Origin: a virus
UHGV virus genome: UHGV-0214148
DNA: 64,000 bases
Strand: one strand, 5' to 3'
Shown: positions 38,620 to 54,955 of the stretch, in pieces
Position numbering within the stretch: position 1 is the first letter of the stretch
How the letters are laid out: each line of letters begins with the position of its first letter
Position numbers and translations under genes: made by a program
The notes under the pieces: generated by a model
Told to the model about the DNA's origin: nothing
Seen by the model: only the letters and a program-made list of their open reading frames with translations
The model's database searches: none

Positions 38620-38632
38620 GGAGAATTTTTTG

Positions 38633-41600
38633 ATGAAAGCGTATCCTTACGATCCTCGGGGGACGAAAACCGAGAATCACTTCTTAGAGGAGCGTATCAT
38701 CGGGTCAGAAAACAACAACGATCGGGTGGTGATTCTAGACCATCGCCCGTTTTTTGAAGATTTAGTCGTCAGACAACCAGGTTCAACCACCCCACTGAGT
38801 CGTGGGGTGGACTACGAACTGCAATATCAGCTGACGGAACTGGATGACTCGGTAGCAGCCAACGTGTATTGTGGGGTACACCTTATCAACCCTTCCATCA
38901 AAGGCATCGTAACCTTTGAAGGACAAATGCTCGGCGGTACGTTCTACGACCCGTTTGTTGATATTCTCGATGAACTGGTGAAATATTTGAATAACCCAGT
39001 CAGTGCTGACTGGTTGTTATTAGAAGGCAGACCGTCGTTATACCCGGCTACGCCTGCGGCAACGTCCTGGGCGGATTTGCTGAACAAAAAATATTTAGCG
39101 TCGGCAGTTCACGATATTGAATTGAAAACCGACGACGCTAACCAGTTAATTAAAGACAAATTAGCTGAAGTTAAAGCGTTAGTCGCCGCGCTGGGTAAAG
39201 AAATCGAGGCATTTAACTACCCGGCACACATCGCGGAAACCAACCCGCACCAAACTACTTCTGCACAGATTAGCGCACATCCTGTTAACTTGAAAACACC
39301 CGACACCTTTATGGCGTACGGGTTAAAGTTGAAAGCACTGACGGATGAACTGAAAGCGTTTCGTTTACCACAGTCAGTTATTGACACGTATATCTCCCAC
39401 TGGATTTCTTCAGAAGTACGGGGTGTGTTTAACTGTACGGTGTCAGGAAACCGTGCACAATTCCGCTCAAAAAACGGTGAGTCAGAAATCATTTTTGCGA
39501 ATGATGGCTTTACGTTAAAATCCAACGGTTCTGTGGTGTTGGCGGTAGGGCATCTGGAGGGAACGGGTGCAGGACGTTACATTAACTGGCGTGCTGGTAA
39601 AAACACCTTACGTATCGAGTCAACAGGCGATGCTTTAGGGATGAACAAACTCACCCTAAACGGTAACCCGTTACTGACTACCACGGCGTTGATGGAATAC
39701 CAACAAGATCCTGATGCTGGCGGGAGCGGCGGCGGTGACCCTGATGACTCGAAGGTGTACATCGAAGGCCGTAATGGGATTAGCTTCACCGGTAAAGGCT
39801 CTCGGACCGATCCTATCGTGGGTACTATCGACCCGACGAAAGCGACAACCGCTGAAAAAGGTGTTGTTAAGCTTAAAACTGGTAAAGGTACAGAAACGGT
39901 TGGGGTTGCAGCAACGCCAGCGTCATTAACACCTTATTCGACCGACCTATCAGGGTATGTGGCTAAAACGACCATGATTAACGGTAAGCCAATGAATGAC
40001 GGCTCCAGGACAATCACGAAAGCTGACCTGGGGTTAGGGCAAGCGGATAACACCGCAGACCTTGACAAACCGTTGTCAACCGAGTTAACTAAGGCGGTTA
40101 GCGGTCTAGCAGATGTAGGCCATCATCACGATTGGTCGGAGTTAGGCATTTATAAAGCTTCTCAATCTGTTTACGGTATTGGACGTTATGCAACTAACCA
40201 GAACGGTTTGGTTGAAAACCGTGCAGTGGTACCGAACATCTTAAAAGAGCTTTCGGCACGTTTAAGTGTGGTCGCTGCGGCAATTGCAAATGCGAAAGAA
40301 GGAACAGTAACGGATTTCGCTGCTGTAAAAGGCGCAGACTGGCGATTTAATAGCCAGGGTACGGCAATCTCCGTTCAGGATTTGAAATATTTCTATTTGC
40401 TGGACGGCACGAAAGGTGACAGTACCGTTACCGGTGCGATTGACCTGCAAACCACCCCGATGTTTAACTGGTTCTCACCGAATAACCAACTTGAGCTGAC
40501 TTGGGCTACGGGTAAGGTGAGTAACGGTACGGGAATCAACTGGACGGGTATTGAAGAACCGCCATTGATGGGGTTCCAGTCTGTCCCGGTAGGTAAAACC
40601 GCTACGCAGATGGGTGACCAGTCAGTTGTTACTGTATTGGCAAAAACGCGTGTAAAAGCATACCAACCGAAGCTCTGGGTTTATGCTGCTGGGGGTGGTC
40701 CGGTTACGGTTTACATTAACGGTATCCAGGCCGCTTCAGGCGAGTCCCCACTCGTTGCGGTGTACGAAACGTCGTCAGACGTTGAAAATTACACAGTGGC
40801 GGTTAAAGCCGAGTGCAGCGACACGACTAAATCCGCAGCGGTACAGTTCGAAGTTTACGATGGTGACTACCCCGTTTATTTCAGTGGTCCTGAAACGCGC
40901 GTAGAGCTTCTCCAGGAGTTTGTTACAACGCACGTAGGGGTTCGTCACTATTTGTACGTTAACATGCTCACAGGCTCTTTGTATTCGCGTGCTGAACCGA
41001 TTCAGAGTATTGCCGTTGACCCAGAGCGCGGTTATATCGGATATGTTGATATCGTTCCTGGTCAGTCTTACGCGAATAAAACTGTGGGGTTTGAAACCAC
41101 GTTTGATTTCGGGAAAAGTGCGGAAGTTAGCGAGCACATCAGCACTCGTAAGGCACACGGACTCAGCGCTGTTGACTGGGCGTTAACGGATAACCCACGG
41201 CTGCCGTTATTAAACCGTGCTATTGCTGAACCAAGAGCGTGTATCTTTAGGAAACCGTTAGCAACCGCTACAGGGGATGTTTTCCATCTTGTCAGTCGCG
41301 GCCTTTATACCTACGCACACAACCAAAACGTGAAGTCGAGTCTTCAATACGTTGTGATACCTGAAGGTGCTACGCCGTATTGTTGGTTTACACCATTTAA
41401 CCCGAAAGAAAACAACGCACCGACATTCGAAGGCTCGTTTGCGTTCGATGTTGACGATGTTGGTGGAACGCAAGCCCTTGCTGCTGCGCCGGATTTGGTT
41501 CTATGCACGTCAACGCAAGGTAGCAGCGTTAAACGTCGCTATCTGCGCATTGACCTAACTACCAAAACCTGTAAGTTGGGGATTGGTTCCCGTTCAGATT

Positions 41601-42814
41601 CTGCTGTTACGGATATTCCGTTAGTGATGGAGGAGTCTGGGGAAACGGCAGTGGCCGCAACGTTTAAGGATGTGTTGTTCAACGGTGAGGAAACCAACCC
41701 CGCGACGCTCGACTTGATAGGTTGGGGTGCCAGCCGAGATAAAATTTCTGCAAACCATGCACCTCGTGGCATGATTCGGTATCGTTACAACGTAAACACA
41801 CGGGTATTACGTTTAGCACTGACGTTCTCACAGTTCGGAACGACAACAGTTAAACATCGACAGCTGGAGATTCAATTCCCGTTCGATTTAGTGGATTATT
41901 TCACTGGCGACGGTGTGGGATTGTCGTTTAAAGAACTGTCTGCGAAATGTCGTGTAACGATTAGTCACGCGCTGATTGATCCGGCTACGAGTAACGTCGA
42001 CATTGATAAGTACCATTACTTACGTTCGTTGTTCGAATCGTATCTGGATTCTTCCGTTGGGTATTTGGCTGATACCAAAGACGTTGATTTTAGTCAGTCT
42101 GTGATTGACCCTGCGACTTACGAGGTTAGTCAAAAATACCGCGTTACAGAAAGCATCGCGCTGCCAACCGGCCAGGGAAGTGTTGCTGTTTCCCATGACG
42201 GCCAGTTGCCTGCGCAGTTCTTTGACCGTAAGCTGTCTCGTGGTGCCTTGATGGCCAAGAAAGGTGAACTCAACGCTTCCTGGAATAATGAGTGGAGCAC
42301 GACTAAAGCTGCTGCGAGTCGTTATCGCCATAAACTCATTCTACGCTTTGCACAAGGTGCTGATAAACAGCAGTATCGCGTTGCAAAAGTGGCCGGGACG
42401 GTGAAGTCTAACTGGCCGGGTAAAGTGATTATTGGTGATGCCGGGAAGGACCCGTATGTATCGGCTATTGATAGCGTATCTTTTGCGCTTTCGACCGCCT
42501 CTGATACAGGTAAAGCGATTACTCTTACGCCAAAGGACTTACGTGTAGGTCAGGACATTTATATTGTCTTAGAACCACCCGGCAATAATCCAGAAGGTTA
42601 TGAACTTAACTTCACTTGTTCGTTAGATGTCACTGACGAGAAAAGTGTCCGTCAAGATCAACTCAATGCACAGAGTTTCGAACTCCGTAGCGGCGAAAGT
42701 CAGTTCTTAATGGAGAAACGCAACCCGTACCACATCACGAGTAAAGCGTGGAAGTGGATTTTGGCTGTACTGAAACGTGAACTTAACGGGAAGCAGTTAG
42801 GGGATCGTACTTAG
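38633..42814 (+). CDS. large fiber-like virion protein 2 (putative tail fiber)
   Basis: ~1393 aa; N-terminal RPFFEDLVV...RGVDYEL pattern; SD AGGAG 10 nt upstream; abuts fiber 1. Confidence 0.55.
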   Translation: MKAYPYDPRGTKTENHFLEERIIGSENNNDRVVILDHRPFFEDLVVRQPGSTTPLSRGVDYELQYQLTELDDSVAANVYCGVHLINPSIKGIVTFEGQMLGGTFYDPFVDILDELVKYLNNPVSADWLLLEGRPSLYPATPAATSWADLLNKKYLASAVHDIELKTDDANQLIKDKLAEVKALVAALGKEIEAFNYPAHIAETNPHQTTSAQISAHPVNLKTPDTFMAYGLKLKALTDELKAFRLPQSVIDTYISHWISSEVRGVFNCTVSGNRAQFRSKNGESEIIFANDGFTLKSNGSVVLAVGHLEGTGAGRYINWRAGKNTLRIESTGDALGMNKLTLNGNPLLTTTALMEYQQDPDAGGSGGGDPDDSKVYIEGRNGISFTGKGSRTDPIVGTIDPTKATTAEKGVVKLKTGKGTETVGVAATPASLTPYSTDLSGYVAKTTMINGKPMNDGSRTITKADLGLGQADNTADLDKPLSTELTKAVSGLADVGHHHDWSELGIYKASQSVYGIGRYATNQNGLVENRAVVPNILKELSARLSVVAAAIANAKEGTVTDFAAVKGADWRFNSQGTAISVQDLKYFYLLDGTKGDSTVTGAIDLQTTPMFNWFSPNNQLELTWATGKVSNGTGINWTGIEEPPLMGFQSVPVGKTATQMGDQSVVTVLAKTRVKAYQPKLWVYAAGGGPVTVYINGIQAASGESPLVAVYETSSDVENYTVAVKAECSDTTKSAAVQFEVYDGDYPVYFSGPETRVELLQEFVTTHVGVRHYLYVNMLTGSLYSRAEPIQSIAVDPERGYIGYVDIVPGQSYANKTVGFETTFDFGKSAEVSEHISTRKAHGLSAVDWALTDNPRLPLLNRAIAEPRACIFRKPLATATGDVFHLVSRGLYTYAHNQNVKSSLQYVVIPEGATPYCWFTPFNPKENNAPTFEGSFAFDVDDVGGTQALAAAPDLVLCTSTQGSSVKRRYLRIDLTTKTCKLGIGSRSDSAVTDIPLVMEESGETAVAATFKDVLFNGEETNPATLDLIGWGASRDKISANHAPRGMIRYRYNVNTRVLRLALTFSQFGTTTVKHRQLEIQFPFDLVDYFTGDGVGLSFKELSAKCRVTISHALIDPATSNVDIDKYHYLRSLFESYLDSSVGYLADTKDVDFSQSVIDPATYEVSQKYRVTESIALPTGQGSVAVSHDGQLPAQFFDRKLSRGALMAKKGELNASWNNEWSTTKAAASRYRHKLILRFAQGADKQQYRVAKVAGTVKSNWPGKVIIGDAGKDPYVSAIDSVSFALSTASDTGKAITLTPKDLRVGQDIYIVLEPPGNNPEGYELNFTCSLDVTDEKSVRQDQLNAQSFELRSGESQFLMEKRNPYHITSKAWKWILAVLKRELNGKQLGDRT

Positions 42815-42900
42815 GACAGACTGCCTGCGGGCAGTTGTGTGTCCGTAGGTAACCCCTCCCTGTAATGGGGAGGGGTATCCATTTTATTTAAAAGTAGGAG
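42815..42900 (+). terminator. intra-operon hairpin/terminator-like element
   Basis: CCCCTCCC-TGTAATG-GGGAGGGG hairpin followed by TATCCATTTTATTT between fiber genes 2 and 3. Confidence 0.45.
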
Positions 42901-42908
42901 TCTTTACG

Positions 42909-45900
42909 ATGCCGAGAGAAGACGCGGCGCAGTTTAACGGTACGCTAAGCACAGCGACGTACCCTAACCGATTTAACGTGGTCATTCCGCCTGAAGGACC
43001 TTTTTATCGTATCGGATTAAAACTCACAGTAGCCGACGATACCGCGCCTAACGGACGTCGTACTCTGATTGAGGGGCTGGACTACTATTTAGGCTATTAC
43101 TTTAAAGAACTCGCCGAAGCTGAACAAGATCAGATTTATGGCGGGTTTATGTTGCTTACTGCAACAGAAATCGAATATGAGATTTTAGGGGTAGCACGGC
43201 AGTATCGTGTACCGCAATCTGAAATCGGGAAGTTCTTAGTTCGTACTGACCTGAAAGACCCACGTAACGTGGACTGGTCGGAGTTAATGGCGTACGCGCC
43301 GGTTATTCAACCAATCGACCCCCCTGCTAACTTAGAAGAAGCTATTCTGAGGGACGAGGTCGTTAAAGCGTTGAACGATATCCGCAAGAAAATCATTCAG
43401 CGTTCAACAGAGTTAGATGCGGCCTTCACCGAAGTCACTAACCTTATTTACGAGAACGGTAAAAAGATTTTCGATGAAGAACTATACCAACACCACCTTA
43501 ATCCTAACGCTCACCAGTATACGACCAATGACGTTGGGGCCCTTCCGGTTTTAGGACGTGCTGTTGACGCTACAAAAGCGTTTGGGTTGACAATTGACCA
43601 ACTGGCTACGCTGATGGGTTCGGCGGGCATTGAGCAATCAGACGTTGAACAGCTAATGGGTGAAGCCCTCGGTACCGTTTACGGTCGTTGGGGCACCACG
43701 AACGGTAACGAACTAACGTTTAAAACACCGGGTGGACACATCATCAGCATCCGTGGTGATAAGTGGTTAATTACCTCCCCGCAACCGTTAGTGATTAAAG
43801 CAGACCAAGACAACAACGAATCCGGTTTGGCGGTTGAGTTTAGTGCGGGACTGAATACGCTTTGGGTACACTCTGGGTCAGAACAGGATGTATTAGCACC
43901 GGTCTATAACTCTGTGTATCTCGTTACACCAGAAATGGTGAACATGTACCTGACGTCTGTAACGTTACTTGAAGCGAATGCCTATTTCAAACCGTCAGAC
44001 ACCGTAAAACCGTACGGTACAGCGAAGCAGTCTAACCCACTAACGTTGAACGCGAATATTCCCACAGCAACCGAGTCGGTTTATGGGGTGTTTTCGATTA
44101 CGAATATCGCAACCTCTGTAGCGCTAGGCACTGCTATTTCCCAAAAGGCTGTGACCGAGTTAAAAAACCGGTTGGACTTGTACGTTGACGACGACTACAC
44201 GGTTAACGGTAGAGGGTTTGTTAAGACAGGCGACAACATGGTGTTAACCTTAACGAAGGCCGATTTCGGTATCGATAAGATGAATAACACCACACCCATC
44301 GCTAAACCGGTAACAAAAGCATTAGCGAACGTGCTGAAAAATAAAAGTTTGAAGGTACACACGCACACTACCGCTGATTTGGATAATGTCCCGATTGGTA
44401 GCGCAACAGTGGACGGTATCTTACAGCTGTGGGATGCGATTGATACCACGAATGATAAAGCCGTCACATCACGCCAAGGGTGGCTGTTCGCAAAAGAGAT
44501 TAAGAAGGTCTCTGATAAACTGAATACCCTCTTGCCCGCATGGACAACGGCCGGGAGCAAATATACCAACAATTCGATATTGCCGATCTTGTCGATGGGT
44601 AATTACGAAGGTTATGGTAAAAACATGGATGCGCTCCAGATGGTTATAGGGGTACAACAAGGTAAGCTTTATGCTTTAATTAGCTCTAAATCCGCCCTTC
44701 CGGGAACCGAGGGTATTTATTACGCCGTTGCCGGGTTAAAAAACGACAAAAGTCTTGGTGAAATTTACAAAACAACGTTCCGTTATAAGCCGAAAGGGTT
44801 AGAGACGAATTATCCTGGGGTGGAACTAAAAGAAATTACCGTTACGGGTACCGAAGCATTTATAGCGAAAGGCAGCGACGATAATTACTATTTAGTTAAA
44901 CTGAACGGTTCAATGGATTACACCAAACATACCGATGTCAGGTTGGTAACTTTCTCAGAATTTGTTTCAGAAACAACATGGGAATTTGTGCCGAATATGT
45001 TCATGGATCGTGTGGTCATAGCCGATAACGGCGTCTATGTTTTGCGTACGATGCTAATGGCCGATCTGAAAAACAATAGTCTGGTGGACTACATTAAGGA
45101 TACTCCGCAACCTATGTTCCGTGTTGGGTTATTGCGACTTAATAAAACCGATCGGTTTGAACAGGTTGATTTAAGCTCTACACGAAAAATCGGTAAGTGT
45201 GCCGATTTGGTTGAACCTGGCGCGTTCGATGTAGATAATCCGAATACGAAGCGTCTTGCCTACTTCACTGCGGAAGGCAAAGCGTTGTGGACAGTGAATT
45301 TACAATTAACTAGAGGGGTGTCAAGATGGATAACGCCCGTTGTTAAGGACGGTAATCTGTTAACCGTCGGCGTGTCTGGCGTTTGTCTTGGTTTTTCTTC
45401 AACGAAAGGTACCACATTCGGGCCATGGAATGGTGCTTATCGTCTCGACCTATTAACCGGGGAGGTTGGGTTAGAGACAACTAACATCTTCCCAATCAAA
45501 ATCGATACTACAGGTTGCTACTTAAAAGACGGAACAAAAATAGAGCTGAAATGGAAATGGGCTACTCGAAGTTCTGGCTATATGGCCGACAATAGAATCT
45601 GTGTCGGTGATATGGTTTATTCTTGCTGCTGTTCGACAGAAAAACAACTTGCACCGTCTCTCCATTACCAGAAACTCCCAGAAGGAGTTAGTTATCTGGA
45701 CTATGTTAAGTTGAGTGCGGGGTATGAGGGGCAATCTACGTTTGAAAATCGGATAAACCCTGTGGTGGGTTCGGTGTGGAAACCGTCTATGACTCTACCA
45801 TTGTTCTTCCCAGGAACAAACAAAGTATGGCTTAAACATCAAAAAACGGCTTATTTCATTGAAGCCGAATATGATAAAGATACGACTTATGGTTATCCTG

Positions 45901-48095
45901 GATACGGCGGGTTTGGACCAACATCCCGCCGTGTTGAAAAAAAAGCGAACGAATACGGCGTATTGACAAATATACCGCTGGTTGTTACGCCAGACATACC
46001 GAAAGGTCTACTAGATGGGGCTTACTTTATCGGTGCTGAAAGTAAACCATGTAAAGTTGTTTACGGTACCACTACGGTGGCTAGTGATCGGTTGTCTATC
46101 GATGCGGCAGAATGGGCGAAGTTGACTAATATTGTTCAGTCCAGCCAGTTCTCTGGGGCTTCTAACGGCAACGCCTATGAGCGGATTAGCGTAGCTAAGA
46201 CCAAAAAGAACAACTACAGTTTGTCCTTTTGGGTGCTTGGTCAAACGATGTCTGGTGGTCCGCTTTGTATCGCGATAGTGAGTCTTATCTATAAAGACAC
46301 TGACGGGGTAAATAAGTTTGCTTTTTACTTCTTTCAGGTAAAACCGACTATAACCAACGGGGTCATAAGGTTCGTTAGTTCGGAAGCGAGAATGATGACG
46401 TTCAGGGAAAAAATGGCCAGTAACGCCATTAATCTCTCACCCACAGCTTTTAATGGTGAACTTAAACAACGCTCCGGTCAAGTTTTCCTTTATTCGCAAG
46501 ACGGACAAAAGTTCAGATTCTCAATACATAACCTGGTTGGCGGGAATCTTGTAGGATCAGAGATTTCTTTTGCTTTTGGGATAAACTTGACTAAAAAAGG
46601 AGAATGGTTTACCGGCGAAATTCATCGGGCGTGGGGCTATACGTATACGCTGAATAATACATCTGAAGTCTATATACCCGATCTCTCGGGCATCGCGCTA
46701 TTGACTTGTAACTCGGAAGATTTAAACGAGTTGTATCTCGGTGGCGAACAGTATAGAATCTCTGATTTGTTTAACAAAAAATATACTGTTATCGATAAGA
46801 TTATTATTGGCGGCGTACAAACACAGAGCGGTTGGAATTTCTATCTGACGGAGGAAACCGAGTTAAGTTTTGGAAATAAAAGATATACCGTTCCAAGATG
46901 GTCCGTTGATTTAAGCGATGAATTCCCGACTAATCACGCTAACCAGACATTCTACGTTTATGCTGAAGTGGTCGGTTCTACTGCCCAATACCGCATCGGT
47001 TTAGAGCAGTTAGCTGATACCTCGTCGAGACTGTTTGTTGGGACAGTAACCACTGATTCGAACCGTATTACGGATATCAGTATCGATAAAGTAAAACGGT
47101 TAGGTCGTGTAAAAGAGCTGGAAAATCATGCCTCGGTTGTTGATCAGCACGATGTGGCGCAGGCGTTCGACAGGAAAACTGGTCCACTATTAACAGTGGT
47201 TAATAAACCCGTTAAAGCCATTACAGCATCTGCGAGCAAGGGTGCTGGGTATGTCGATGGCCAGAAATGGAATACGTTGTCCGGGATTGCAACGCGGCCC
47301 AGGTTGCCGGTACAGGAAACCTATTCAGGTTATAAAAGTATCAGCAGGGTGGCGTATGAGAACTGCGCTGACCAGTTCTGGCAGAAAGCGGTTGCTGCGA
47401 ACGTTGCAGCGGCTACTGCTTCTGAGAACAAACAAGCAGCAACCGCGAACATGAAGTGGCTGGGCGCGTATACGAGACCGACTACCGGTGCGAGTGTGTG
47501 TCTGGTACTAAGTCTACGTGTTAAAGTACCTGGTAATCCCGGCACCGCTAATCGTAGACTGAAAATCAGGCTTGCGGCTCCGACAGGTATAACTGAAGTT
47601 CGTTACGGGTTAAATCAGTCTGGCGGTACGATGGCTGAACAGACAGTAACGTTGACTGCCAACAGTTATCTGGAAAAAGAGCACGCCGGATTTAAGCCAG
47701 CCGAAGAAGTTCGTGTTCATGCTACCTTTGTCATTCCAAAAAATGAATACGAGAGTTACCGTACGAAGTTCGGTGCGGTTCAGTTGATTGACGTTGAATC
47801 GAACACTGTCATTAAACAGACAGATATCGACACACCGTTTTTCGTGTACACCGCCACGGAGCAAGCGGCACAATCTGGTTTGGTGTATAAAGCGGTTAAG
47901 AGTCAGTTTCGTCAACTCCCGGCTCAACCTGTCGTCATTGTAACTGATGGACAGACAGGGACTACGCCACCGGTGAAAACCTCGTTTGCTGACGGGACAT
48001 TAACGGTCTACGTGGCAACCACGTACGACGCGGTTAACCCAGCACAAACACGCGATATCGACAAGCTCCAGTTCAATCTTATGTTTACATCTTAA
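42909..48095 (+). CDS. large fiber-like virion protein 3 (putative tail fiber)
   Basis: 1728 aa; N-terminal GPFYRIGLKLTV...LIEGLDYYLG pattern; SD AGGAG precedes the ATG. Confidence 0.55.
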   Translation: MPREDAAQFNGTLSTATYPNRFNVVIPPEGPFYRIGLKLTVADDTAPNGRRTLIEGLDYYLGYYFKELAEAEQDQIYGGFMLLTATEIEYEILGVARQYRVPQSEIGKFLVRTDLKDPRNVDWSELMAYAPVIQPIDPPANLEEAILRDEVVKALNDIRKKIIQRSTELDAAFTEVTNLIYENGKKIFDEELYQHHLNPNAHQYTTNDVGALPVLGRAVDATKAFGLTIDQLATLMGSAGIEQSDVEQLMGEALGTVYGRWGTTNGNELTFKTPGGHIISIRGDKWLITSPQPLVIKADQDNNESGLAVEFSAGLNTLWVHSGSEQDVLAPVYNSVYLVTPEMVNMYLTSVTLLEANAYFKPSDTVKPYGTAKQSNPLTLNANIPTATESVYGVFSITNIATSVALGTAISQKAVTELKNRLDLYVDDDYTVNGRGFVKTGDNMVLTLTKADFGIDKMNNTTPIAKPVTKALANVLKNKSLKVHTHTTADLDNVPIGSATVDGILQLWDAIDTTNDKAVTSRQGWLFAKEIKKVSDKLNTLLPAWTTAGSKYTNNSILPILSMGNYEGYGKNMDALQMVIGVQQGKLYALISSKSALPGTEGIYYAVAGLKNDKSLGEIYKTTFRYKPKGLETNYPGVELKEITVTGTEAFIAKGSDDNYYLVKLNGSMDYTKHTDVRLVTFSEFVSETTWEFVPNMFMDRVVIADNGVYVLRTMLMADLKNNSLVDYIKDTPQPMFRVGLLRLNKTDRFEQVDLSSTRKIGKCADLVEPGAFDVDNPNTKRLAYFTAEGKALWTVNLQLTRGVSRWITPVVKDGNLLTVGVSGVCLGFSSTKGTTFGPWNGAYRLDLLTGEVGLETTNIFPIKIDTTGCYLKDGTKIELKWKWATRSSGYMADNRICVGDMVYSCCCSTEKQLAPSLHYQKLPEGVSYLDYVKLSAGYEGQSTFENRINPVVGSVWKPSMTLPLFFPGTNKVWLKHQKTAYFIEAEYDKDTTYGYPGYGGFGPTSRRVEKKANEYGVLTNIPLVVTPDIPKGLLDGAYFIGAESKPCKVVYGTTTVASDRLSIDAAEWAKLTNIVQSSQFSGASNGNAYERISVAKTKKNNYSLSFWVLGQTMSGGPLCIAIVSLIYKDTDGVNKFAFYFFQVKPTITNGVIRFVSSEARMMTFREKMASNAINLSPTAFNGELKQRSGQVFLYSQDGQKFRFSIHNLVGGNLVGSEISFAFGINLTKKGEWFTGEIHRAWGYTYTLNNTSEVYIPDLSGIALLTCNSEDLNELYLGGEQYRISDLFNKKYTVIDKIIIGGVQTQSGWNFYLTEETELSFGNKRYTVPRWSVDLSDEFPTNHANQTFYVYAEVVGSTAQYRIGLEQLADTSSRLFVGTVTTDSNRITDISIDKVKRLGRVKELENHASVVDQHDVAQAFDRKTGPLLTVVNKPVKAITASASKGAGYVDGQKWNTLSGIATRPRLPVQETYSGYKSISRVAYENCADQFWQKAVAANVAAATASENKQAATANMKWLGAYTRPTTGASVCLVLSLRVKVPGNPGTANRRLKIRLAAPTGITEVRYGLNQSGGTMAEQTVTLTANSYLEKEHAGFKPAEEVRVHATFVIPKNEYESYRTKFGAVQLIDVESNTVIKQTDIDTPFFVYTATEQAAQSGLVYKAVKSQFRQLPAQPVVIVTDGQTGTTPPVKTSFADGTLTVYVATTYDAVNPAQTRDIDKLQFNLMFTS

Positions 48096-49345: not shown

Positions 49346-49391
49346 GGAGGAACTATGCTTATGGGCGTAGTCCTCCATTCTTTTTTATTTT
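49346..49391 (+). terminator. rho-independent terminator between fiber gene and peptide genes
   Basis: GGAGGA...TCCTCC stem followed by ATTCTTTTTTATTTT, ending 9 bp before the first precursor-peptide start. Confidence 0.65.
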
Positions 49392-49399
49392 AAGGATAC

Positions 49400-49798
49400 G
49401 TGATGGCGATCAGTGTTAAAAATGTACGTGACCGAATCACCAACGTAGAGAACCAAATGGCAACTGGCCCACGTGTTGATCCGCAAGTTGCGTCGAAAGC
49501 ACATAATGCCGCCGACACTTTTTCGGGTTGGACGCCAAGTCGGTTAGACTGCGGGGGAAGTTGCAGCTGGACGTGCTCAAACGGCTGTACGCACGGCTGT
49601 ACGAGTTGTTCGGGCACCTGTACGTCAGTATGTGTAGGTAGCTGCTCCTCTGCGTGCGGTAACCAGTGTACTGGATGTAGTTCAACATGTTCCGGCGGCT
49701 GTTCAGGTTGCAGTGGGACCTGTGGGGGTGCTTGCTCGGGCCGTTGTTCTACGGGTTGTTCTGGTGCTTGCTCTGGTGGCTGTTCTGGCCCAACCTAA
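49400..49798 (+). CDS. Cys-rich precursor-like peptide A (leader plus CxxxC-repeat core)
   Basis: 132 aa. ~49-aa leader (AISVKNVRDRITNVENQ...SRLD), then a core starting CGGSCSWTCS with ~21 Cys, mostly at 4-residue spacing and separated by Gly/Ser/Thr. SD AAGGA upstream. Confidence 0.65.
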   Translation: MMAISVKNVRDRITNVENQMATGPRVDPQVASKAHNAADTFSGWTPSRLDCGGSCSWTCSNGCTHGCTSCSGTCTSVCVGSCSSACGNQCTGCSSTCSGGCSGCSGTCGGACSGRCSTGCSGACSGGCSGPT

Positions 49799-49808
49799 GA
49801 GGTGAAAA

Positions 49809-50207
49809 ATGGCAATTGGATTACCTGCGCTACAAGCGCGGCTAAATAACATTGACAACACTGCATTGAAGAATACGGGTGCAGTGCAAAACTATATTCG
49901 TGGGAAAGCGACGAACAACGCAGACTTATTCGGTGGACAAGCTCGCAACCATTACGACTGTGGTGGGAGCTGTAGCTGGACCTGTTCGAGCTGTTCTGGT
50001 GGTTGTACAGGGAACGCATCAGGCGGCTGTGGTTCTTCGTGTTCTGCAAACTGTGTATCAGGTTGCAGCGCAGGCTGTAGCGGATGTTCGAATACATGTT
50101 CTGGTGGCTGCTCAGGAAGCTGTACGGGGAGTTGTTCTAACTCGTGTGTGGGAAACTGTTCTTCAGGCTGTTCGGGCAGTTGTTCTGGTGGGTGTTCTGG
50201 GAGGTAA
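49809..50207 (+). CDS. Cys-rich precursor-like peptide B (paralog of A)
   Basis: 132 aa; leader ends ...NHYD; core begins CGGSCSWTCS and carries ~20 Cys in CxxxC spacing. SD AAGAGGTG upstream. Confidence 0.65.
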   Translation: MAIGLPALQARLNNIDNTALKNTGAVQNYIRGKATNNADLFGGQARNHYDCGGSCSWTCSSCSGGCTGNASGGCGSSCSANCVSGCSAGCSGCSNTCSGGCSGSCTGSCSNSCVGNCSSGCSGSCSGGCSGR

Positions 50208-50209
50208 TT

Positions 50210-50416
50210 GTGATTAGCCTTAAGAACCTTCGTGATCGATTAGTAACAGCGGAAGGGTATATTACGACCGCTAACGCAAACAACTATATTGCAAACCAGG
50301 GCACCGTGTCTTCAACCAATAACCTTGCCGGTTTACCTTTAAGCCATTATAACTGTAACGGCGGATGTAGCTGGTCGTGTAGCGGTAGCTGTAGTAAAGG
50401 TGCGGGGGGAAGGTAA
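50210..50416 (+). CDS. Cys-rich precursor-like peptide C (short-core paralog)
   Basis: GTG start 2 bp after the peptide B stop, with GGGAGG inside the end of gene B as SD. 68 aa: leader VISLKNLRDRLV...SHYN, then core CNGGCSWSCSGSCSKGAGGR. Confidence 0.55.
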   Translation: MISLKNLRDRLVTAEGYITTANANNYIANQGTVSSTNNLAGLPLSHYNCNGGCSWSCSGSCSKGAGGR

Positions 50417-50565
50417 CTAAGCCCTCCAGTGGTAGTATGTCTATTACGCAATAACCGAGTTAATCGTACGGGTTTACTGCTGAGTTTCAAGTTACCGGTA
50501 GGCAATGGCGCGGTGGGTTCTATACCCTGAATGTCCGTTTGACCGTGAAATAATTGGAGCAATCA

Positions 50566-51453
50566 ATGAAGAATGATTTACATTTAGCGTACAAAACAAT
50601 TTTCAATCATCCACTTCACATTTCTTCCCCTGATTCCGTACGTGCACACTTAGCAGATGAAGTTCGTCTGCTGACTCAGTTGCCGGGCGAATGGCCTAAA
50701 GTGCGCGGACGTTTCTTTACCGATCGTAAAAACTATCGTGTAGAAAATACGTTTAAGATTCGTGATCTGACGGCAGAAAGTGTGGTGGTCTTTACCGGTG
50801 ACTCCGAGTTGCGTGGTAAACTGGTTGCGGGTAAATATTTCTTTAGTGACGGGATTTTGAATAACTCCGTAGATATGGAATTGTTCTTTACCCCATTTGA
50901 AGAAATGGGCGCAAAACCGGTTGCCCGTCGTTGGTGGTCACCGGATTACTTAGGCTCGTTCCCGTATTTCTTTACCCTGGTAACACCAGAAACGAAGAAC
51001 TATTTCGATACGGAATCGTATATCGAAATTGAAGGGTACGAAGCGTTAGGGATTAATTGCTTAGCGGATTTAATGGCGTATAGCTATAAGTTCGTGTGGG
51101 ATCGTGAACGTTCCGTGTGGGTTGCCCTGACAGATGAACACGAAATCACAAAACGCATCCGTAAGCCTTGGATGCAGCATTTGATTCAAACACGTGTTGG
51201 CGAGCATCCGTCAACAGAAGCGGATCTGGCAAAACTCGTTAGTTTCTTAATGACGAAAGTCACGTTAACTAACGAAGAGAAAGCAGCAGTGTCGGCGGTG
51301 TTGGACCGTAACGTAACGTTGGCGGATTTAGAACGTTTAAATGTCCGTTATAAAGACCTTAACCGTATTTTGGAAGCGTATAACTCTCCATTCTTGTTAA
51401 CCCCTGGTGCTAACGTAGACGACGATCCTTTGTTCGCCATTGATTATATTTAA
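50566..51453 (+). CDS. hypothetical protein in peptide/radical-SAM operon (accessory candidate)
   Basis: ~295-aa ORF between the peptide genes and the radical-SAM genes; SD TGGAG; no motif recognised. Confidence 0.55.
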   Translation: MKNDLHLAYKTIFNHPLHISSPDSVRAHLADEVRLLTQLPGEWPKVRGRFFTDRKNYRVENTFKIRDLTAESVVVFTGDSELRGKLVAGKYFFSDGILNNSVDMELFFTPFEEMGAKPVARRWWSPDYLGSFPYFFTLVTPETKNYFDTESYIEIEGYEALGINCLADLMAYSYKFVWDRERSVWVALTDEHEITKRIRKPWMQHLIQTRVGEHPSTEADLAKLVSFLMTKVTLTNEEKAAVSAVLDRNVTLADLERLNVRYKDLNRILEAYNSPFLLTPGANVDDDPLFAIDYI

Positions 51454-51474: not shown

Positions 51475-52398
51475 ATGACAACCAATGCAGAACCAAGGTT
51501 ATCGAATCGTTTATACGATAAACCCACCGTATTGTCCGTAGTCGCTACGTCCAAGTGCAACCTGGATTGTAGCTTCTGCGGTGGAGCCTATTACATGAAT
51601 CGTGAAGATTCTCCGCGAGAGTTTCAACGTGAGCGAATTTTGGAAGCGCTGGAAGCTAATCCAACCATTACCGAAATTCAGTGGACGGGTGGTGAGCCAT
51701 TACTGGCAACCCGTAAAATTGAGGCGTTTGTTGACGAATTAAAAGTGATTCGTCCAGAACTCAAACACCAGTTGTATACCAATGGCTTAAAGATGCGTAA
51801 ATCGCATCTCCCGTTGCTAAAACAGTTTGACAATGTCTACGTTAGCATCGATGGGTTTAAGTCGTCTGAGCGCCCGTTTATGCGCTTTATTGACGAAGGC
51901 TGTTACGAAGCACTGGAAACGATCTACGAGCTGGATAATGTCCAGACTTGGGGTGTCCTGACACGGGACCGTTTAGGGGACAAACGCTGGCACGAAGATA
52001 TTATTCAGCTGCACAGCGCGATTTACCATTACGGTTTCCGTGCAATGACGTTACTCTTAGATGCGAAAATGCCAAAACCTTTATCGCCCGACCACGTCAT
52101 GAACTTTATTTACGGCTACTATCAGGTTCAGGATAACATTGAACGACTGAATGTAGTAAATAGTCGTGAATGCGGCTTTACGGTAAGTAAAGTGTTTGAA
52201 GAAGGGTGTAACGTTTGCAGCGAAAGTCTTTGGATTAATGCAGACGGTGGTGAGCACCAACTCCAGAATGCACCTAACGTTCTGGAATCGGGATGTAACC
52301 AACTGGCCTTCTCTATCGGTGTAGAGGCGTACGAATATATTCGTCGCGTAGTGATGGCAGGGCGTAATAGAGGGGCGGCAAATGAGTCAAGTAAATGA
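51475..52398 (+). CDS. radical SAM enzyme with C-terminal Cys cluster (SPASM/twitch-like)
   Basis: CNLDCSFC at residues 28-35 (CxxxCxxC), GGEPLL glycine-rich motif, and C-terminal cysteines CGF...EGCNVCSES...SGCNQ. Confidence 0.75.
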   Translation: MTTNAEPRLSNRLYDKPTVLSVVATSKCNLDCSFCGGAYYMNREDSPREFQRERILEALEANPTITEIQWTGGEPLLATRKIEAFVDELKVIRPELKHQLYTNGLKMRKSHLPLLKQFDNVYVSIDGFKSSERPFMRFIDEGCYEALETIYELDNVQTWGVLTRDRLGDKRWHEDIIQLHSAIYHYGFRAMTLLLDAKMPKPLSPDHVMNFIYGYYQVQDNIERLNVVNSRECGFTVSKVFEEGCNVCSESLWINADGGEHQLQNAPNVLESGCNQLAFSIGVEAYEYIRRVVMAGRNRGAANESSK

Positions 52399-53704
52399 AT
52401 TCCCTAAGCAGTTAACGTATCAGATCGTAACCAACCTTTCGTGTAACCTGGACTGCGAATATTGTTACGAACGTAAGTACCCGCGTAACAACAAAGCGGC
52501 GGATATTGTTGATTTCTTACACGCCTGTTTTGAACGTGATAAAAACGAACCGAATGTTGAAGTTATTATCGACATTATCGGTGGTGAGCCGTTCATGCAG
52601 CCTAAACTGCTGCTGGCTGCGTTTGAAACCGCTGAGCAGTTGTGTAAAGAACACAACCGACCGTTTATGTTTAGTATCTCCACGAACGGAACGCTGTTAG
52701 ATCGTCCGTTGAACCGTGAGATTGTAGAACGTTGGAAAGACAAACTTTCGGTTGGGGTTTCGATTGACGGCTTACCTGAGTCCCATGACCGTTATCGTAT
52801 CTTCACAACAACACGCCAGGGTTCTTACGAAGCCGCAGTACGTGGCTATAACTACTTAAAAGAGGTTGGCATTGCAGAGCTCGGCGTAAAAGCAACCTTT
52901 ACGTTAGAAACGCTGCCGTTCTATGCTGCGGGGATGAAGTCATTAATTGACATTACTGGCGGTGGGACAATTTCTGGAAACGTAACTTTCGAAGACGTTA
53001 TGCCACGTAGCATGGCGACGTCAATCGCTTTACAGATGATGGATGTGATAGATTACTGGGTTGAGAAAGGATTACACACCAACCCACGTAATATCTTATC
53101 GCACATCATTCCAGAAGGGTTGGATTTCGATACGATTTGGGAACCGAACTGGCGTGACCAGTTACTGTATAATGACACCGTACGGTTGAACCCAGAACGT
53201 TTACGTCCGTTCTGTGGGACGTTAACGCACATGACGTGCTTAGGGTTTGACCGTAAGATCTTTGGCTGTAACCGCTTTATGTCAACGGTAACGTCGCGTT
53301 CTGCGGTGTTTGAGTTGGTAGGTCGGGAATTCGTCAGTCTGGACAACGGTAAATTGTTAGAAGAGATTCAAACGCAATATACCAACTACCCAGAGACCTG
53401 TTTAGGTTGTCCGATGAAACACGCTTGTGGTAGCTGCGCGGCTGCTTCTTACGAGAACGGGGAAGGAACGTTAGAAGACCGTAAAGCGTATCACGCTGAA
53501 CGACGTCAGTGCGGCTGGACGACAGCGAAACTGATGGTGGCGGAATACTGGAAACAGAAGATGGGTACGACGTCAGCAAAAGCGTTCCATGACACGAGCA
53601 TGTGTTATTGCCCACGCTGTGTTCGTGAACGTGCCCAAAAGGAAAAATTATTAAGAGAAGCCAAAGATGAAACCAATTCTGATCAACAATATTACGAAGC
53701 GTAG
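52382..53704 (+). CDS. radical SAM / SPASM-domain enzyme (peptide-maturase-like)
   Basis: CNLDCEYC at residues 21-28, GGEPF, and a C-terminal canonical SPASM pattern CLGCPMKHACGSC (CxxCx5CxxxC) plus further Cys pairs. Overlaps the preceding radical-SAM gene by 17 bp. Confidence 0.8.
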   Translation: MSQVNEFPKQLTYQIVTNLSCNLDCEYCYERKYPRNNKAADIVDFLHACFERDKNEPNVEVIIDIIGGEPFMQPKLLLAAFETAEQLCKEHNRPFMFSISTNGTLLDRPLNREIVERWKDKLSVGVSIDGLPESHDRYRIFTTTRQGSYEAAVRGYNYLKEVGIAELGVKATFTLETLPFYAAGMKSLIDITGGGTISGNVTFEDVMPRSMATSIALQMMDVIDYWVEKGLHTNPRNILSHIIPEGLDFDTIWEPNWRDQLLYNDTVRLNPERLRPFCGTLTHMTCLGFDRKIFGCNRFMSTVTSRSAVFELVGREFVSLDNGKLLEEIQTQYTNYPETCLGCPMKHACGSCAAASYENGEGTLEDRKAYHAERRQCGWTTAKLMVAEYWKQKMGTTSAKAFHDTSMCYCPRCVRERAQKEKLLREAKDETNSDQQYYEA

Positions 53705-54239
53705 AATTCGACTTCTGGATAAGTTTCTGGAAAACAGTAAGCTATTCGGTTGTTATGTGGTGATTAACGGTGAAGATTTTACCGATGACGTAAAACGCTT
53801 ACTGATTCGTCACGGCGTGACTGTAATCATCCCAATGTACTGCACCGAACTTACTGACCTGTCGGTCGCGGAAATTGAAAAACGTAACCCAGGGTTTGAA
53901 GAACGGGTATTGGATTTCCCACGTCACAAAATTGCGTTTCTACGCCGCTCTTTAAGCGAACCCAGCGCAGAATCTATCACTGTGTTGGCATTGTCCTTCC
54001 CCGGCATTACTATCTTCGCAACACGTAACCCGAACTCACCGATTGATGGGTTTTACGATGAGCGGGAGAAATTTAATAGCGTGATTTTTCCTGAGCTAAC
54101 GCCAGAAGAATGCCAGGGTATCCGTATCGATTGGGAATCTGACTTCGACACAAGATTCCGTCATATCGATTTTGAACTGTTAATCGAATTAGGGTTGATT
54201 AAAGGAGACGATGAATGTCTGCTACTGGTGAAGGCTTAA
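53667..54239 (+). CDS. hypothetical protein (operon member)
   Basis: 190-aa ORF overlapping the radical-SAM gene end by 38 bp. Confidence 0.5.
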   Translation: MKPILINNITKRRIRLLDKFLENSKLFGCYVVINGEDFTDDVKRLLIRHGVTVIIPMYCTELTDLSVAEIEKRNPGFEERVLDFPRHKIAFLRRSLSEPSAESITVLALSFPGITIFATRNPNSPIDGFYDEREKFNSVIFPELTPEECQGIRIDWESDFDTRFRHIDFELLIELGLIKGDDECLLLVKA

Positions 54240-54894: not shown

Positions 54895-54955
54895 GAAAAA
54901 AAAAAACAGTATACCTACCTCCCGTAATAGGAGGTAGGTATTTTTATTTTTTCTT
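54895..54955. terminator. bidirectional rho-independent terminator
   Basis: A-run, hairpin ATACCTACCTCC-CGTAAT-AGGAGGTAGGTAT (54911-54941), then TTTTTATTTTTT; between convergent genes. Confidence 0.75.

What the first reader, a model, noticed from the sequence alone, without database searches (positions are those of the whole stretch)
49400..50416. Triplicated precursor genes: conserved leader and core junction, variable core length
The three peptides share the junction motif (D/N)C(G/N)G(S/G)CSW(T/S)CS and leader features (KN[VL]RDR[IL] near the N-terminus), but cores differ greatly in length (about 83, 82 and 20 residues). This is the pattern expected for a leader-guided substrate family that diversifies by core duplication and deletion. 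The conserved Trp in CSW(T/S)CS is the only aromatic residue in the cores and is a candidate recognition or crosslink site. Gene C starts at a GTG 2 bp after the gene B stop and uses GGGAGG inside the end of gene B as SD, suggesting coupled translation.
Basis: seen in the sequence. Interest (0 to 1): 0.8.

Follow-up and report, generated by a model that had tools for sequence, protein, structure and literature searches.

The report
Phage Cys-repeat proteins for radical-SAM crosslinking
Three small proteins with a cysteine at every fourth residue sit beside two radical SAM enzymes in the tail-fibre gene block of a giant SPN3US-like phage; they are most likely enzyme-crosslinked fibre parts rather than free peptide natural products, and I found no paper describing such a modification for virion proteins.

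Summary
Genes A (49403-49798), B (49809-50207) and C (50210-50416) are real paralogues (phrog_6085) sharing an invariant C-x-G-x-C-S-(W/F) junction followed by CX3 repeats (21, 20 and 4 Cys). The triad is ancient, not a recent duplication. It keeps the same order in all 26 SPN3US/Erwinia-type jumbo-phage loci examined, inside a fixed cassette: A-B-C, 295-aa orphan protein, small radical SAM, SPASM radical SAM, 190-aa protein, DUF4376. The cassette lies directly after the baseplate/tail-fibre genes.

The SPASM enzyme is a distant, full-length relative of the bacterial "CXXX-repeat target" maturase (TIGR04115) and of PapB and CteB. Bacterial Tat-signal CXXX targets carry the same DCNGSCSW junction.

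The "leader/core RiPP" reading is only partly supported:
- No RRE, peptidase or exporter was found.
- In other phages the same module is the C-terminal end of real tail-fibre proteins.
- Gene-C homologues can carry a folded domain after the Cys motif.

Best explanation: these are substrates for iterative radical-SAM crosslinking, probably thioether, and stay uncleaved as tail-fibre-associated structural modules. This is a new, unreported phage variant of a system so far known only from in-silico prediction, and SPN3US genetics could test it.

The parts
34297..48095 (+). Three giant baseplate/tail-fibre-candidate genes (1440, 1394 and 1728 aa), homologues of SPN3US gp170, gp169 and gp168
   Evidence: ORFs. 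The 1728-aa product hits phrog_7449 and virion structural PHROGs. It matches SPN3US gp168 directly; the equivalence of the 1394- and 1440-aa genes to gp169 and gp170 rests on position and size, since these two proteins were never scanned. The SPN3US orthologues are virion proteins called baseplate/tail-fibre candidates and are absent from a tailless mutant (PMC5694885).
48130..49335 (+). 401-aa coiled-coil virion structural protein (SPN3US gp167 homologue)
   Evidence: phrog_2163, E 5e-103. gp167 was detected in SPN3US virions and is not marked as a head protein.
49346..49390 (+). Hairpin plus T-run (intrinsic-terminator-like) between the 401-aa gene and gene A
   Evidence: RNA fold -21.4 kcal/mol, z -5.3, 0 of 200 shuffles as stable; followed by AUUCUUUUUUAUUUU. 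It was not picked up by the simple scan.
49403..49798 (+). Gene A: 49-aa N-terminal module, DCGGSCSW junction, 82-aa CX3-repeat region (21 Cys)
49809..50207 (+). Gene B: 50-aa N-terminal module, DCGGSCSW junction, 82-aa CX3-repeat region (20 Cys)
   Evidence: TIGR04114 scores 19.4 bits against a cutoff of 20.
50210..50416 (+). Gene C: GTG start, 48-aa N-terminal module, NCNGGCSW junction, only 4 Cys. Short form of a protein that carries a C-terminal domain in some relatives
50566..51453 (+). 295-aa conserved cassette protein (phrog_8030; SPN3US gp165 homologue) with an orphan fold
51475..52398 (+). Small radical SAM enzyme (307 aa): CX3CX2C at residues 28/32/35, plus 4 C-terminal Cys that look like a twitch-type auxiliary-cluster site
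   Evidence: Pfam Radical_SAM E 6e-14. Cys map. Best solved relative is SkfB, E 3e-6. Homologues lie next to CXXX proteins in L011, L012, L033 and L034.
52382..53704 (+). Radical SAM/SPASM enzyme (440 aa): CX3CX2C at residues 21/25/28, no N-terminal RRE; SPASM Cys at 278, 286, 296, 340, 343, 349, 352, 377
   Evidence: NCBIfam: PapB 116.8 bits; TIGR04115 114.7 bits over profile positions 3-345 of 359. CteB (5wgg) E 5.8e-14. 25% identity over 362 aa to a true TIGR04115 member. Strongly conserved in all five other phage CXXX loci searched (61-464 bits).
53667..54239 (+). 190-aa conserved cassette protein (phrog_7988), function unknown
   Evidence: a homologue is also present in the divergent cassette of L012
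54215..54886 (+). 223-aa DUF4376 protein with weak tail-fibre PHROG similarity. Last gene of the unit
   Evidence: Pfam DUF4376 E 4.8e-11. phrog_8169; phrog_1807 'tail fiber protein' E 2.5e-4. The SPN3US orthologue gp161 was not detected in virions.
54911..54941 (.). Bidirectional intrinsic terminator closing the + strand unit
   Evidence: 12-13 bp stem with T-runs on both strands

Best explanation
A, B and C are the substrate proteins of the two phage radical SAM enzymes encoded 1-3 kb downstream. Together they form the phage branch of the "CXXX-repeat radical SAM target" system.

**Shown**
- The genes are real and under purifying selection.
- They sit in a fixed eight-gene cassette (A-B-C, 295-aa protein, small rSAM, SPASM rSAM, 190-aa protein, DUF4376). 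The cassette starts after a terminator-like hairpin and ends at a bidirectional terminator, immediately downstream of the baseplate/tail-fibre genes.
- The same C-x-G-x-C-S-(W/F/Y) junction plus CX3 repeats occurs next to homologues of the SPASM enzyme in several unrelated phage types and in bacteria.

**Inferred from homology**
- The SPASM enzyme is related to CteB, PapB and TIGR04115; the small enzyme is SkfB-like. I infer they act iteratively along the roughly 20 CX3 units.
- They most likely link each Cys sulfur to a carbon of a neighbouring Ser/Gly/Thr/Ala/Asn residue (sactionine- or ranthionine-type thioethers). That would turn a floppy Gly/Ser/Cys tail into a covalently laddered, redox-insensitive and protease-resistant rod or knot, made in the reducing cytoplasm where disulfides cannot form.
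- The invariant junction is the likely docking or first-reaction site. It is all that remains in the 2-Cys C-type proteins.

**Inferred from architecture**
- The roughly 50-aa N-terminal module is not a disposable leader. It is the minimal remnant of a fibre shaft or adaptor.
- The products stay uncleaved and are mounted on, or act with, the tail fibres or baseplate. Gene C is the short form of a small fibre protein that carries a distal domain in some relatives.
For: **1. Gene reality and conservation**.

**2. Enzyme homology**
- rSAM440 aligns over its full length to TIGR04115 (114.7 bits) and PapB (116.8 bits).
- CteB is its best solved relative. It is 25% identical over 362 aa to a genuine TIGR04115 enzyme and has a SPASM Cys set.
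- rSAM307's best solved relative is the thioether-forming twitch enzyme SkfB.

**3. Substrate homology**
- The phage profile retrieves bacterial Tat-signal proteins with DCNGSCSWGC plus CX3 repeats. These hit TIGR04117/TIGR04114 and PF27846 tSAM_targ_Cxxx_rpt.

**4. Co-occurrence**
- rSAM440 homologues (61-464 bits) lie beside CXXX proteins in L012, L031, L033, L034 and L035.

**5. Structural (tail-fibre) reading**
- Cassette position after the SPN3US gp167-170 homologues, which are virion tail proteins. The enzyme orthologues gp163-165 are not in virions.
- L031: a 568-aa protein directly after baseplate wedge genes ends in "...NAVTLGGQPPDFYTCGGSCSWSC" plus CX3 repeats and is followed by rSAMs.
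- L011 (T7-like podophage): the order is portal, capsid, tube, nozzle, T7 tail-fibre N-domain, collagen-like piece, P0022, rSAM. P0022 combines an N-domain with PHROG tail-fibre hits and a phrog_6085 module.
- P0073 has a T4 fibre-connector-like N-terminus and is followed by two rSAMs.
- P0065 is followed by rSAM, a 236-aa protein, rSAM and a tail Collar-domain protein.
- Gene-C homologues carry conserved C-terminal domains inside the same cassette.

**6. What is absent**
- No RRE on rSAM440, none in the 295-aa protein, and no recognisable peptidase or exporter.
Against: - No direct evidence that A, B or C are in virions. The SPN3US proteome searches could not have found them, because the genes are unannotated or mis-framed, and crosslinked Cys-rich peptides are poor MS targets.
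- In one divergent phage (L012) the whole cassette lies away from recognisable fibre genes.
- A profile of the N-terminal module finds no homology to the window's own fibre proteins.
- AF2 gives only a low-confidence two-helix N-terminus for gene C (pLDDT 53). This fits a disordered leader as well as an oligomeric fibre piece.
- rSAM440 and the peptides score below the curated NCBIfam cutoffs.
- The chemistry is inferred from relatives only. The cores contain no Asp or Glu, so the PapB-type Cys-Asp link is impossible.
- The 190-aa protein could not be modelled and might be an RRE or a protease.
Confidence: 0.55

Rival explanations
1. Classical leader-guided RiPP. A, B and C are precursor peptides. 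The 48-50-aa leader guides the rSAMs and is then cleaved. The modified Cys-rich cores are released at lysis as free bioactive peptides, for example antimicrobial, metal-chelating or signalling molecules.
For: - Short ORFs in multiple copies lie directly upstream of a SPASM rSAM whose closest named relatives are RiPP maturases (PapB, CteB, CcpM, SCIFF).
- The N-terminal region is conserved, including an L-(F/A)-(G/A)-G motif about 8 residues before the first Cys, reminiscent of double-Gly leaders.
- In L012 the cassette is not next to fibre genes.
- The gene C monomer is predicted to be largely disordered.
Against: - No RRE on rSAM440 and none in the 295-aa protein.
- No peptidase or transporter in the cassette.
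- The 'leader' is embedded in long tail-fibre proteins in other phages.
- C-type homologues have folded domains after the 'core'.
- Bacterial relatives use a Tat signal, which exports a folded protein, rather than a cleaved RiPP leader.
- The cassette position in the tail module is conserved in 26 of 26 jumbo-phage loci.
Confidence: 0.25
2. Non-virion assembly factors. The modified Cys-repeat proteins act with the 295-aa, 190-aa and DUF4376 proteins as chaperones or scaffolds for folding or trimerising the giant fibre proteins, or as Fe-S or metal carriers. They are not incorporated into particles.
For: - Their cassette neighbours gp161-165 are absent from SPN3US virions.
- DUF4376 shows weak similarity to tail-fibre and tail-assembly families.
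Against: - Fusion of the module to the distal end of a 568-aa fibre and to fibre N-domains argues for incorporation.
- There is no precedent for rSAM-modified chaperones.
Confidence: 0.12
3. Unmodified Cys-rich metal-binding or disulfide-rich (metallothionein- or keratin-associated-like) proteins. The neighbouring rSAMs would have an unrelated substrate.
For: The Cys/Gly/Ser composition resembles metal-binding or disulfide-rich repeats. The modification itself has not been observed.
Against: CXXX proteins are tightly and repeatedly linked to rSAM440 homologues in at least six independent genomic contexts, including bacteria. In L015 and L016 an extra small rSAM is inserted between A and B.
Confidence: 0.06
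4. Not genes. The ORFs would be frame artefacts of a G+C-rich repetitive stretch, with the real genes in another frame or strand, as several GenBank records annotate.
For: Public records annotate other frames or strands here, for example SPN3US gp100/gp166 and Huxley gp176/177.
Against: - pN is far below the saturated pS in the Cys frame.
- The invariant junction and the start codons with SD sequences are conserved.
- PHROG family hits reach 1e-40.
- Homologues are fused in-frame to fibre proteins.
Confidence: 0.01

Closest known systems
Bacterial CXXX-repeat radical SAM target system: NCBIfam TIGR04114/TIGR04117 targets (Pfam PF27846 tSAM_targ_Cxxx_rpt), TIGR04115 rSAM maturase, TIGR04119, TIGR04116, often with TatA/TatC. 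To my knowledge it has been defined only in silico.
   Same: - Cys-every-fourth repeats rich in Gly, Ser and Thr.
- An identical opening motif (D)C(N/G)GSCS(W/Y)xC.
- An adjacent SPASM rSAM lacking an N-terminal RRE. It is homologous over its full length to rSAM440.
   Different: - The phage proteins have no Tat signal, and the phage has no TatA/TatC.
- TIGR04119 and TIGR04116 homologues were not detected.
- The phage cassette adds a second small rSAM and two phage-only proteins.
- It sits in a tail-fibre module.
- Scores fall below the curated cutoffs: 114.7 against 350; 19.4 and 14.5 against 20.
Freyrasin / PapB ranthipeptide system (six CX3D motifs; Cys S to Asp beta-carbon thioethers). Chemistry taken from my own knowledge of the literature.
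   Same: - A periodic CX3 motif processed iteratively by one SPASM rSAM.
- PapB is the top NCBIfam hit of rSAM440 (116.8 bits).
   Different: - The cores here have no Asp or Glu, so the acceptor residue must differ.
- About 20 repeats rather than 6.
- The score is below the PapB cutoff of 340.
SCIFF/CteB and SKF/SkfB thioether-forming rSAMs (sacti-/ranthipeptides)
   Same: They are the best solved-structure relatives of rSAM440 (CteB 5wgg, E 5.8e-14) and rSAM307 (SkfB 6efn, E 3e-6). Both acquire Cys-rich substrates.
   Different: - CteB's N-terminal RRE (residues 1-104) has no counterpart here.
- Their substrates are short leader/core peptides with one or a few crosslinks.
QhpC/QhpD (rSAM-installed thioether crosslinks in a protein subunit that stays part of a complex) and anSME (a SPASM enzyme acting on whole proteins without an RRE). 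Both taken from established knowledge.
   Same: This is the model for how the system may work: an rSAM/SPASM enzyme modifies a protein that is retained as a structural or functional subunit, not a cleaved peptide. Both families appear among the rSAM440 hits (TIGR03906 61.3 bits; TIGR03942 59.2 bits; PDB 4k37).
   Different: - Similarity is weak.
- Different substrates and acceptor residues.
- No phage or virion context is known for either.
Modular phage tail fibres with a conserved proximal part and a variable distal domain
   Same: - The cassette lies in the fibre module.
- In other phages the module is fused to fibre shafts or N-domains.
- The C-terminal domains of C-type proteins vary.
   Different: To my knowledge and in the literature searched, no known tail fibre carries enzyme-installed radical SAM crosslinks or CX3 repeats.

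Membership tests
phrog_6085 (phage protein family, unknown function) | Significant match to the family profile | tested here: met
   A 1.5e-40, B 1.4e-39 and C 2.3e-24; C covers profile positions 2-66.
CXXX-repeat rSAM target (TIGR04114 / PF27846) | Score at or above the curated cutoff (20 bits) for the 18-residue repeat model | tested here: not met
   A 14.5 bits, B 19.4 bits, C no hit. PF27846 is not in the local Pfam copy. However, the phage profile A1 retrieves PF27846/TIGR04117 members at E 1e-8 to 1e-10.
CXXX-repeat rSAM target system | Cys at a period of 4 over many repeats, adjacent to a TIGR04115-type SPASM rSAM | tested here: met
   Cys spacing. rSAM440 lies about 2 kb downstream in the same unit. 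It is co-conserved in 26 of 26 jumbo-phage loci and in 5 other phage contexts.
CXXX-repeat rSAM target system | Maturase is a member of TIGR04115 (cutoff 350 bits) | tested here: not met
   114.7 bits, although the alignment covers profile positions 3-345 of 359. A true member scores 625 bits. Pairwise identity is 25% over 362 aa, E 3e-22.
CXXX-repeat rSAM target system | Accessory proteins TIGR04119 and TIGR04116, and a Tat signal or TatA/TatC | tested here: not met
   No NCBIfam hits for the 295-aa or 190-aa proteins. BLAST of the 295-aa protein and rSAM307 against the TIGR04119 protein is not significant. There is no RRxF motif in A, B or C.
Leader-guided RiPP precursor | RRE (PqqD-like) domain on the maturase or on a partner protein | tested here: inconclusive
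   [not shown]
Leader-guided RiPP precursor | Leader peptidase and/or exporter in the cluster | tested here: not met
   No peptidase or transporter family was detected in any cassette protein with Pfam, NCBIfam or PHROGs. A novel protease cannot be excluded.
Leader-guided RiPP precursor | Core is the C-terminal end, and the leader is a free N-terminal peptide across the family | tested here: not met
   C-type homologues have 70-158-aa domains after the last Cys. In P0022, P0073, P0065 and L031 the module lies at residues ~96-210, ~144-222, ~125-237 and ~443-531 of larger proteins.
Radical SAM / SPASM enzyme (rSAM440) | CX3CX2C motif plus the 7-8-Cys SPASM motif (CX2CX5CX2-3C) for two auxiliary clusters | tested here: met
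   C21/25/28; C278, 286, 296, 340, 343, 349, 352, 377. Pfam Radical_SAM 3.4e-15.
Thioether (sacti-/ranthipeptide) chemistry | Observed Cys S-C crosslinks (a -2 Da shift per link, with loss of free thiols) | not testable with these tools
   Inferred only from the nearest characterised relatives CteB, PapB and SkfB.
Virion (tail-fibre) structural protein | Detected in purified particles | not testable with these tools
   The published SPN3US virion proteome lists gp167-173 but could not contain A, B or C, because they are unannotated or mis-framed.
Virion (tail-fibre) structural protein | Gene lies in the tail-fibre module, or the module is fused to tail-fibre domains | tested here: met
   Position after the gp167-170 homologues in 26 loci. 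Fusions and contexts in L011, L031, L033 and L034. Exception: L012.

The most novel reading that the evidence does not exclude
Tail fibres or baseplate appendages of SPN3US-like jumbo phages, and of several uncultured T7-like and other phages, end in or are decorated by a Cys-X3 ladder. Two phage-encoded radical SAM enzymes crosslink this ladder covalently in the cytoplasm. This would be the first virion structural protein matured by radical SAM chemistry. The modified module would contribute to receptor engagement or to the mechanical and chemical robustness of the fibre.
Probability: 0.45. Interest if true: 0.85.

Novelty: new variant of a known kind. Interest (0 to 1): 0.7.

Why it matters
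- **A new setting for radical SAM chemistry.** Radical SAM/SPASM maturases are known for small secreted peptides and a few enzymes. A phage-encoded pair acting on repeat proteins inside the tail-fibre module would extend this chemistry to virion construction, and it would give the bacterial CXXX-repeat system its first functional context; I know of no experimental characterisation of that system, and my literature searches found none.
- **Experimentally tractable.** The system is conserved in SPN3US, a genetic model with amber mutants and established virion proteomics, and in many Erwinia, Salmonella and E. coli therapeutic-candidate phages. It can be tested directly.
- **Overlooked so far.** In many of the public records examined the A and B genes are missing or annotated in the wrong frame or strand. 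This explains why proteomic studies have not seen them.
- **Practical relevance.** If the module affects adsorption or stability, it matters for host-range engineering of jumbo phages.

Tried and rejected
- **Recent duplication.** TRF and paralogue blastn show only 12-nt repeats of at most 2.7 copies and matches of at most 44 nt. Rejected.
- **Homology of the N-terminal module to the window's own fibre proteins.** An HMM of 62 module instances searched against all window ORFs hit only A, B and C.
- **The 190-aa protein.** No PDB sequence hit. Three homologue searches failed, so no alignment could be built and the prediction slot went to gene C instead.
- **AF2 of gene C.** Low confidence (pLDDT 53), two N-terminal helices only. 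It does not discriminate between the readings.
- **Homology of the TIGR04119 protein to the 295-aa protein or rSAM307.** None found.
- **Cultured phages with fibre-fused modules.** tblastn of P0022 and of the L031 fibre found only N-domain hits or the jumbo-phage module itself.
- **IMG/VR scan with the P0022-type alignment.** It retrieved 67 loci sharing only the common N-domain; none has CX3 repeats.
- **Literature.** Ten searches found no paper on this phage system or on the TIGR0411x families. Haft & Basu 2011 is not held in the library.
- **Unverified recollection.** The motif N-x-x-L-x-G-x5-(Y/F) before the junction resembles a common tail-fibre motif. That is from memory only and is not used as evidence.
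Full report
**Observation**

The sequence and ORF list show three consecutive + strand genes.
- A runs 49403-49798 (131 aa), B 49809-50207 (132 aa) and C 50210-50416 (68 aa).
- C starts at a GTG 2 nt after the stop of B, with GGGAGG inside the end of B as its ribosome-binding site.
- A script gives N-terminal parts of 49, 50 and 48 aa, followed by DCGGSCSWTCS (A and B) or NCNGGCSWSCS (C), and then 82, 82 and 20 residues containing 21, 20 and 4 Cys.
- The Cys spacing is almost always 4. Trp is the only aromatic residue in the cores, and there are no acidic residues.
- The KNxRDR motif is in A and C but not in B.

All three hit one phage family, phrog_6085 (E 1e-40 to 1e-24). The description is therefore accurate.

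**Source and neighbourhood**

The window is a relative of Salmonella phage SPN3US and of the Erwinia jumbo phages, with about 72% nucleotide identity over the downstream genes.

Upstream lie three giant genes and a 401-aa coiled-coil protein. The SPN3US counterparts gp170, gp169, gp168 and gp167 are virion proteins. gp168-170 are called baseplate/tail-fibre candidates and are missing from a tailless mutant (PMC5694885).

Downstream lie, in order:
- a 295-aa protein (phrog_8030);
- a 307-aa radical SAM enzyme;
- a 440-aa radical SAM/SPASM enzyme;
- a 190-aa protein (phrog_7988);
- a DUF4376 protein.

Their SPN3US orthologues gp161-165 are not in the virion proteome. A strong hairpin with a T-run (49346-49390; z -5.3) precedes gene A, and a bidirectional terminator (54911-54941) follows DUF4376.

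**Conservation**

- tblastn finds the N-terminal part of A in 60 phage records, all Salmonella, Erwinia, E. coli or Proteus jumbo phages.
- IMG/VR adds 17 loci, all on 107-248-kb contigs (16 of the 17 on contigs of 213 kb or more).
- In all 26 jumbo-phage loci the order 401-aa protein, A, B, C, 295-aa protein, small rSAM, SPASM rSAM, 190-aa protein, DUF4376 is identical.
- A, B and C form three orthologous groups of stable length in nine phages from five genera.
- The GTG start of C corresponds to an ATG in four of those phages.
- The alignment has invariant C, G, C and S in the junction and a nearly invariant aromatic residue. It is Phe in gene B of SPN3US, STsAS and L010.
- Against orthologues, synonymous sites are saturated (pS 0.66-0.97, with two lower estimates of 0.39 and 0.50 from the 20-codon core of C), whereas pN is 0.07-0.30 in both the N-terminal part and the repeats.
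- There is no nucleotide trace of recent duplication.

The triplication is therefore old, and all parts are under purifying selection. In many of the GenBank/RefSeq records examined, A and B are unannotated or annotated in another frame or strand. This explains why they have gone unnoticed.

**The enzymes**

rSAM440:
- It has CX3CX2C at residues 21/25/28 and a full SPASM cysteine set.
- Its best NCBIfam matches are PapB (116.8 bits) and the CXXX-repeat-target maturase TIGR04115 (114.7 bits, nearly full-length). Both are below the curated cutoffs.
- Its best solved relative is the thioether-forming CteB. The alignment starts at CteB residue 105, so the RRE domain of CteB has no counterpart.

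rSAM307:
- It has CX3CX2C plus four C-terminal Cys.
- Its best solved relative is the twitch-domain thioether synthase SkfB.

The 295-aa protein gives a confident AF2 model (pLDDT 88). It has no significant structural neighbour in the PDB or BFVD beyond its own orthologue. No peptidase or transporter family is detectable in the cassette.

**Relatives of the substrates**

A profile of 18 phage sequences retrieved 279 proteins. They fall into four groups.

(i) Bacterial proteins of about 100 aa with a twin-arginine signal, followed by DCNGSCS(W/Y)GC and CX3 repeats.
- They hit TIGR04117/TIGR04114 and Pfam PF27846 tSAM_targ_Cxxx_rpt.
- One lies next to a true TIGR04115 rSAM (625 bits), TIGR04119, TIGR04116, TatA and TatC.
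- rSAM440 is 25% identical to that rSAM over 362 aa.

(ii) Gene-C-like proteins with an extra 70-158-aa C-terminal domain.
- P0059 and P0063 share a conserved extension.
- P0028 and P0059 sit in the same cassette in related jumbo phages.

(iii) Proteins of 210-245 aa in which the phrog_6085 module is C-terminal to other domains.
- P0022 has an N-domain that hits PHROG tail-fibre families. It lies in a T7-like podophage after portal, capsid, tube, nozzle, a T7 tail-fibre N-domain and a collagen-like piece, and is followed by a small rSAM.
- P0073 has a T4 fibre-connector-like N-terminus and is followed by two rSAMs.
- P0065 is followed by an rSAM, a 236-aa protein, a second rSAM and a tail Collar-domain protein.

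(iv) In a 213-kb phage contig (L031), a 568-aa protein directly after baseplate wedge genes ends in "NAVTLGGQPPDFYTCGGSCSWSC" plus CX3 repeats and is followed by rSAMs.

rSAM440 homologues are present in all these phage contexts at 61-464 bits, compared with 72 bits for the bacterial enzyme. A divergent phage (L012) has the complete cassette, including an A/B/C-like triad, but not next to recognisable fibre genes.

**Interpretation**

That A, B and C are the substrates of the rSAMs is well supported, by repeated independent co-occurrence and by homology of both partners to the bacterial CXXX-repeat system. I put this at about 0.85.

The chemistry is inferred. All the closest characterised relatives (CteB, PapB, SkfB) make Cys thioethers. 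Because the cores lack Asp and Glu, the acceptors must be Ser, Gly, Thr, Ala or Asn carbons.

- no RRE, peptidase or exporter was found;
- the "leader" is embedded in long fibre proteins elsewhere;
- C-type proteins can have folded domains after the "core";
- bacterial relatives use Tat export of a folded product.

Together with the fixed position in the tail module, this favours uncleaved, crosslinked, fibre-associated structural modules. I put this at about 0.55, against about 0.25 for a released RiPP.

Counter-evidence:
- There is no proteomic detection, although detection was not possible with the existing databases.
- The L012 context is away from fibre genes.
- The N-terminal module shows no homology to the window's own fibres.
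- The AF2 monomer model of gene C is uninformative.

**Comparison with what is known, and novelty**

The nearest known system is the bacterial CXXX-repeat rSAM target family.
- The phage version shares the repeat, the junction motif and a homologous RRE-less SPASM enzyme.
- It fails the curated thresholds and lacks the Tat signal and TIGR04119/TIGR04116.
- It adds a second small rSAM and two phage-only proteins.
- It lives in tail-fibre modules.

Ten full-text searches found no description of it. I rate it a new variant of a known kind. Interest is 0.7, because it predicts radical-SAM maturation of virion proteins and can be tested in an existing genetic model.

**Limits**

- The exhaustive profile search failed.
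- Three homologue searches for the 190-aa protein failed.
- AFDB50 was unavailable.
- No multimer modelling was possible.

Noticed in passing
L001 8426-8761 (SPN3US gp100 = SPN3US_0166); L002 7099-7422 and 7543-7836 (Huxley gp177, gp176); L006 7257-7397 and 7563-7841; L003 6700-7029; L004 7550-7822: Public annotations of the A/B region are often in the wrong frame or on the wrong strand, or are missing altogether (SPN3US, STsAS, SPFM phages). Only the short gene C is usually called correctly. Virion proteomics that used these annotations could not detect A or B.
   Followed up: partly
L015 8418-9329 and L016 (IMG/VR jumbo-phage contigs): An extra copy of the small radical SAM gene (303 aa, with the same CNLDCSFCGG motif) is inserted between genes A and B, in addition to the usual copy downstream.
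   Followed up: no
L010 8001-8633; L032 9001-9450; proteins P0016, P0028, P0059, P0063: Gene C exists in long forms with different C-terminal beta-rich domains of 70-158 aa. The window has the short form, followed by a 149-nt spacer (50417-50565). The spacer shows no similarity to the L010 extension and no unusual RNA structure (z +0.5).
   Followed up: partly
window 44545-46801 (inside the 1728-aa fibre gene): This stretch has no blastn match in the close relatives L010, L015 and L017, although the flanks match at 76-95%. L018 matches it within a 9-kb alignment (94% overall, the fibre protein itself 99% identical), and its 295-aa, rSAM and 190-aa genes (50519-53945) match at only 73%, with A, B and C 71-84% identical at protein level. 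The fibre and the rSAM cassette therefore recombine as separate modules.
   Followed up: partly
L014 1-5761: The Bacteroidales CXXX/Tat system lies directly after a split P22-type portal gene and a phage integrase. This 'bacterial' example may itself sit on a prophage or mobile element.
   Followed up: no
L012 2651-3835 and 7600-7821: The divergent phage that carries the full cassette also encodes a third radical SAM protein (394 aa) a few kb upstream, and an Acb2/Tad1-like anti-defence hairpin protein just before the A-like gene.
   Followed up: no
L031 8385-9100 and 9885-12400: The phage with the fibre-fused module has a small rSAM split into two ORFs (71 + 157 aa; a frameshift or an assembly error). 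It also has a 472-aa rSAM and a further rSAM440-type enzyme, so there are three rSAM genes after one fibre.
   Followed up: no
[not shown]
   Followed up: yes
window 54954-56118 (- strand): Two adjacent paralogous genes (176 and 188 aa) converge on the cassette terminator. Their L010 counterparts carry DUF7941.
   Followed up: no
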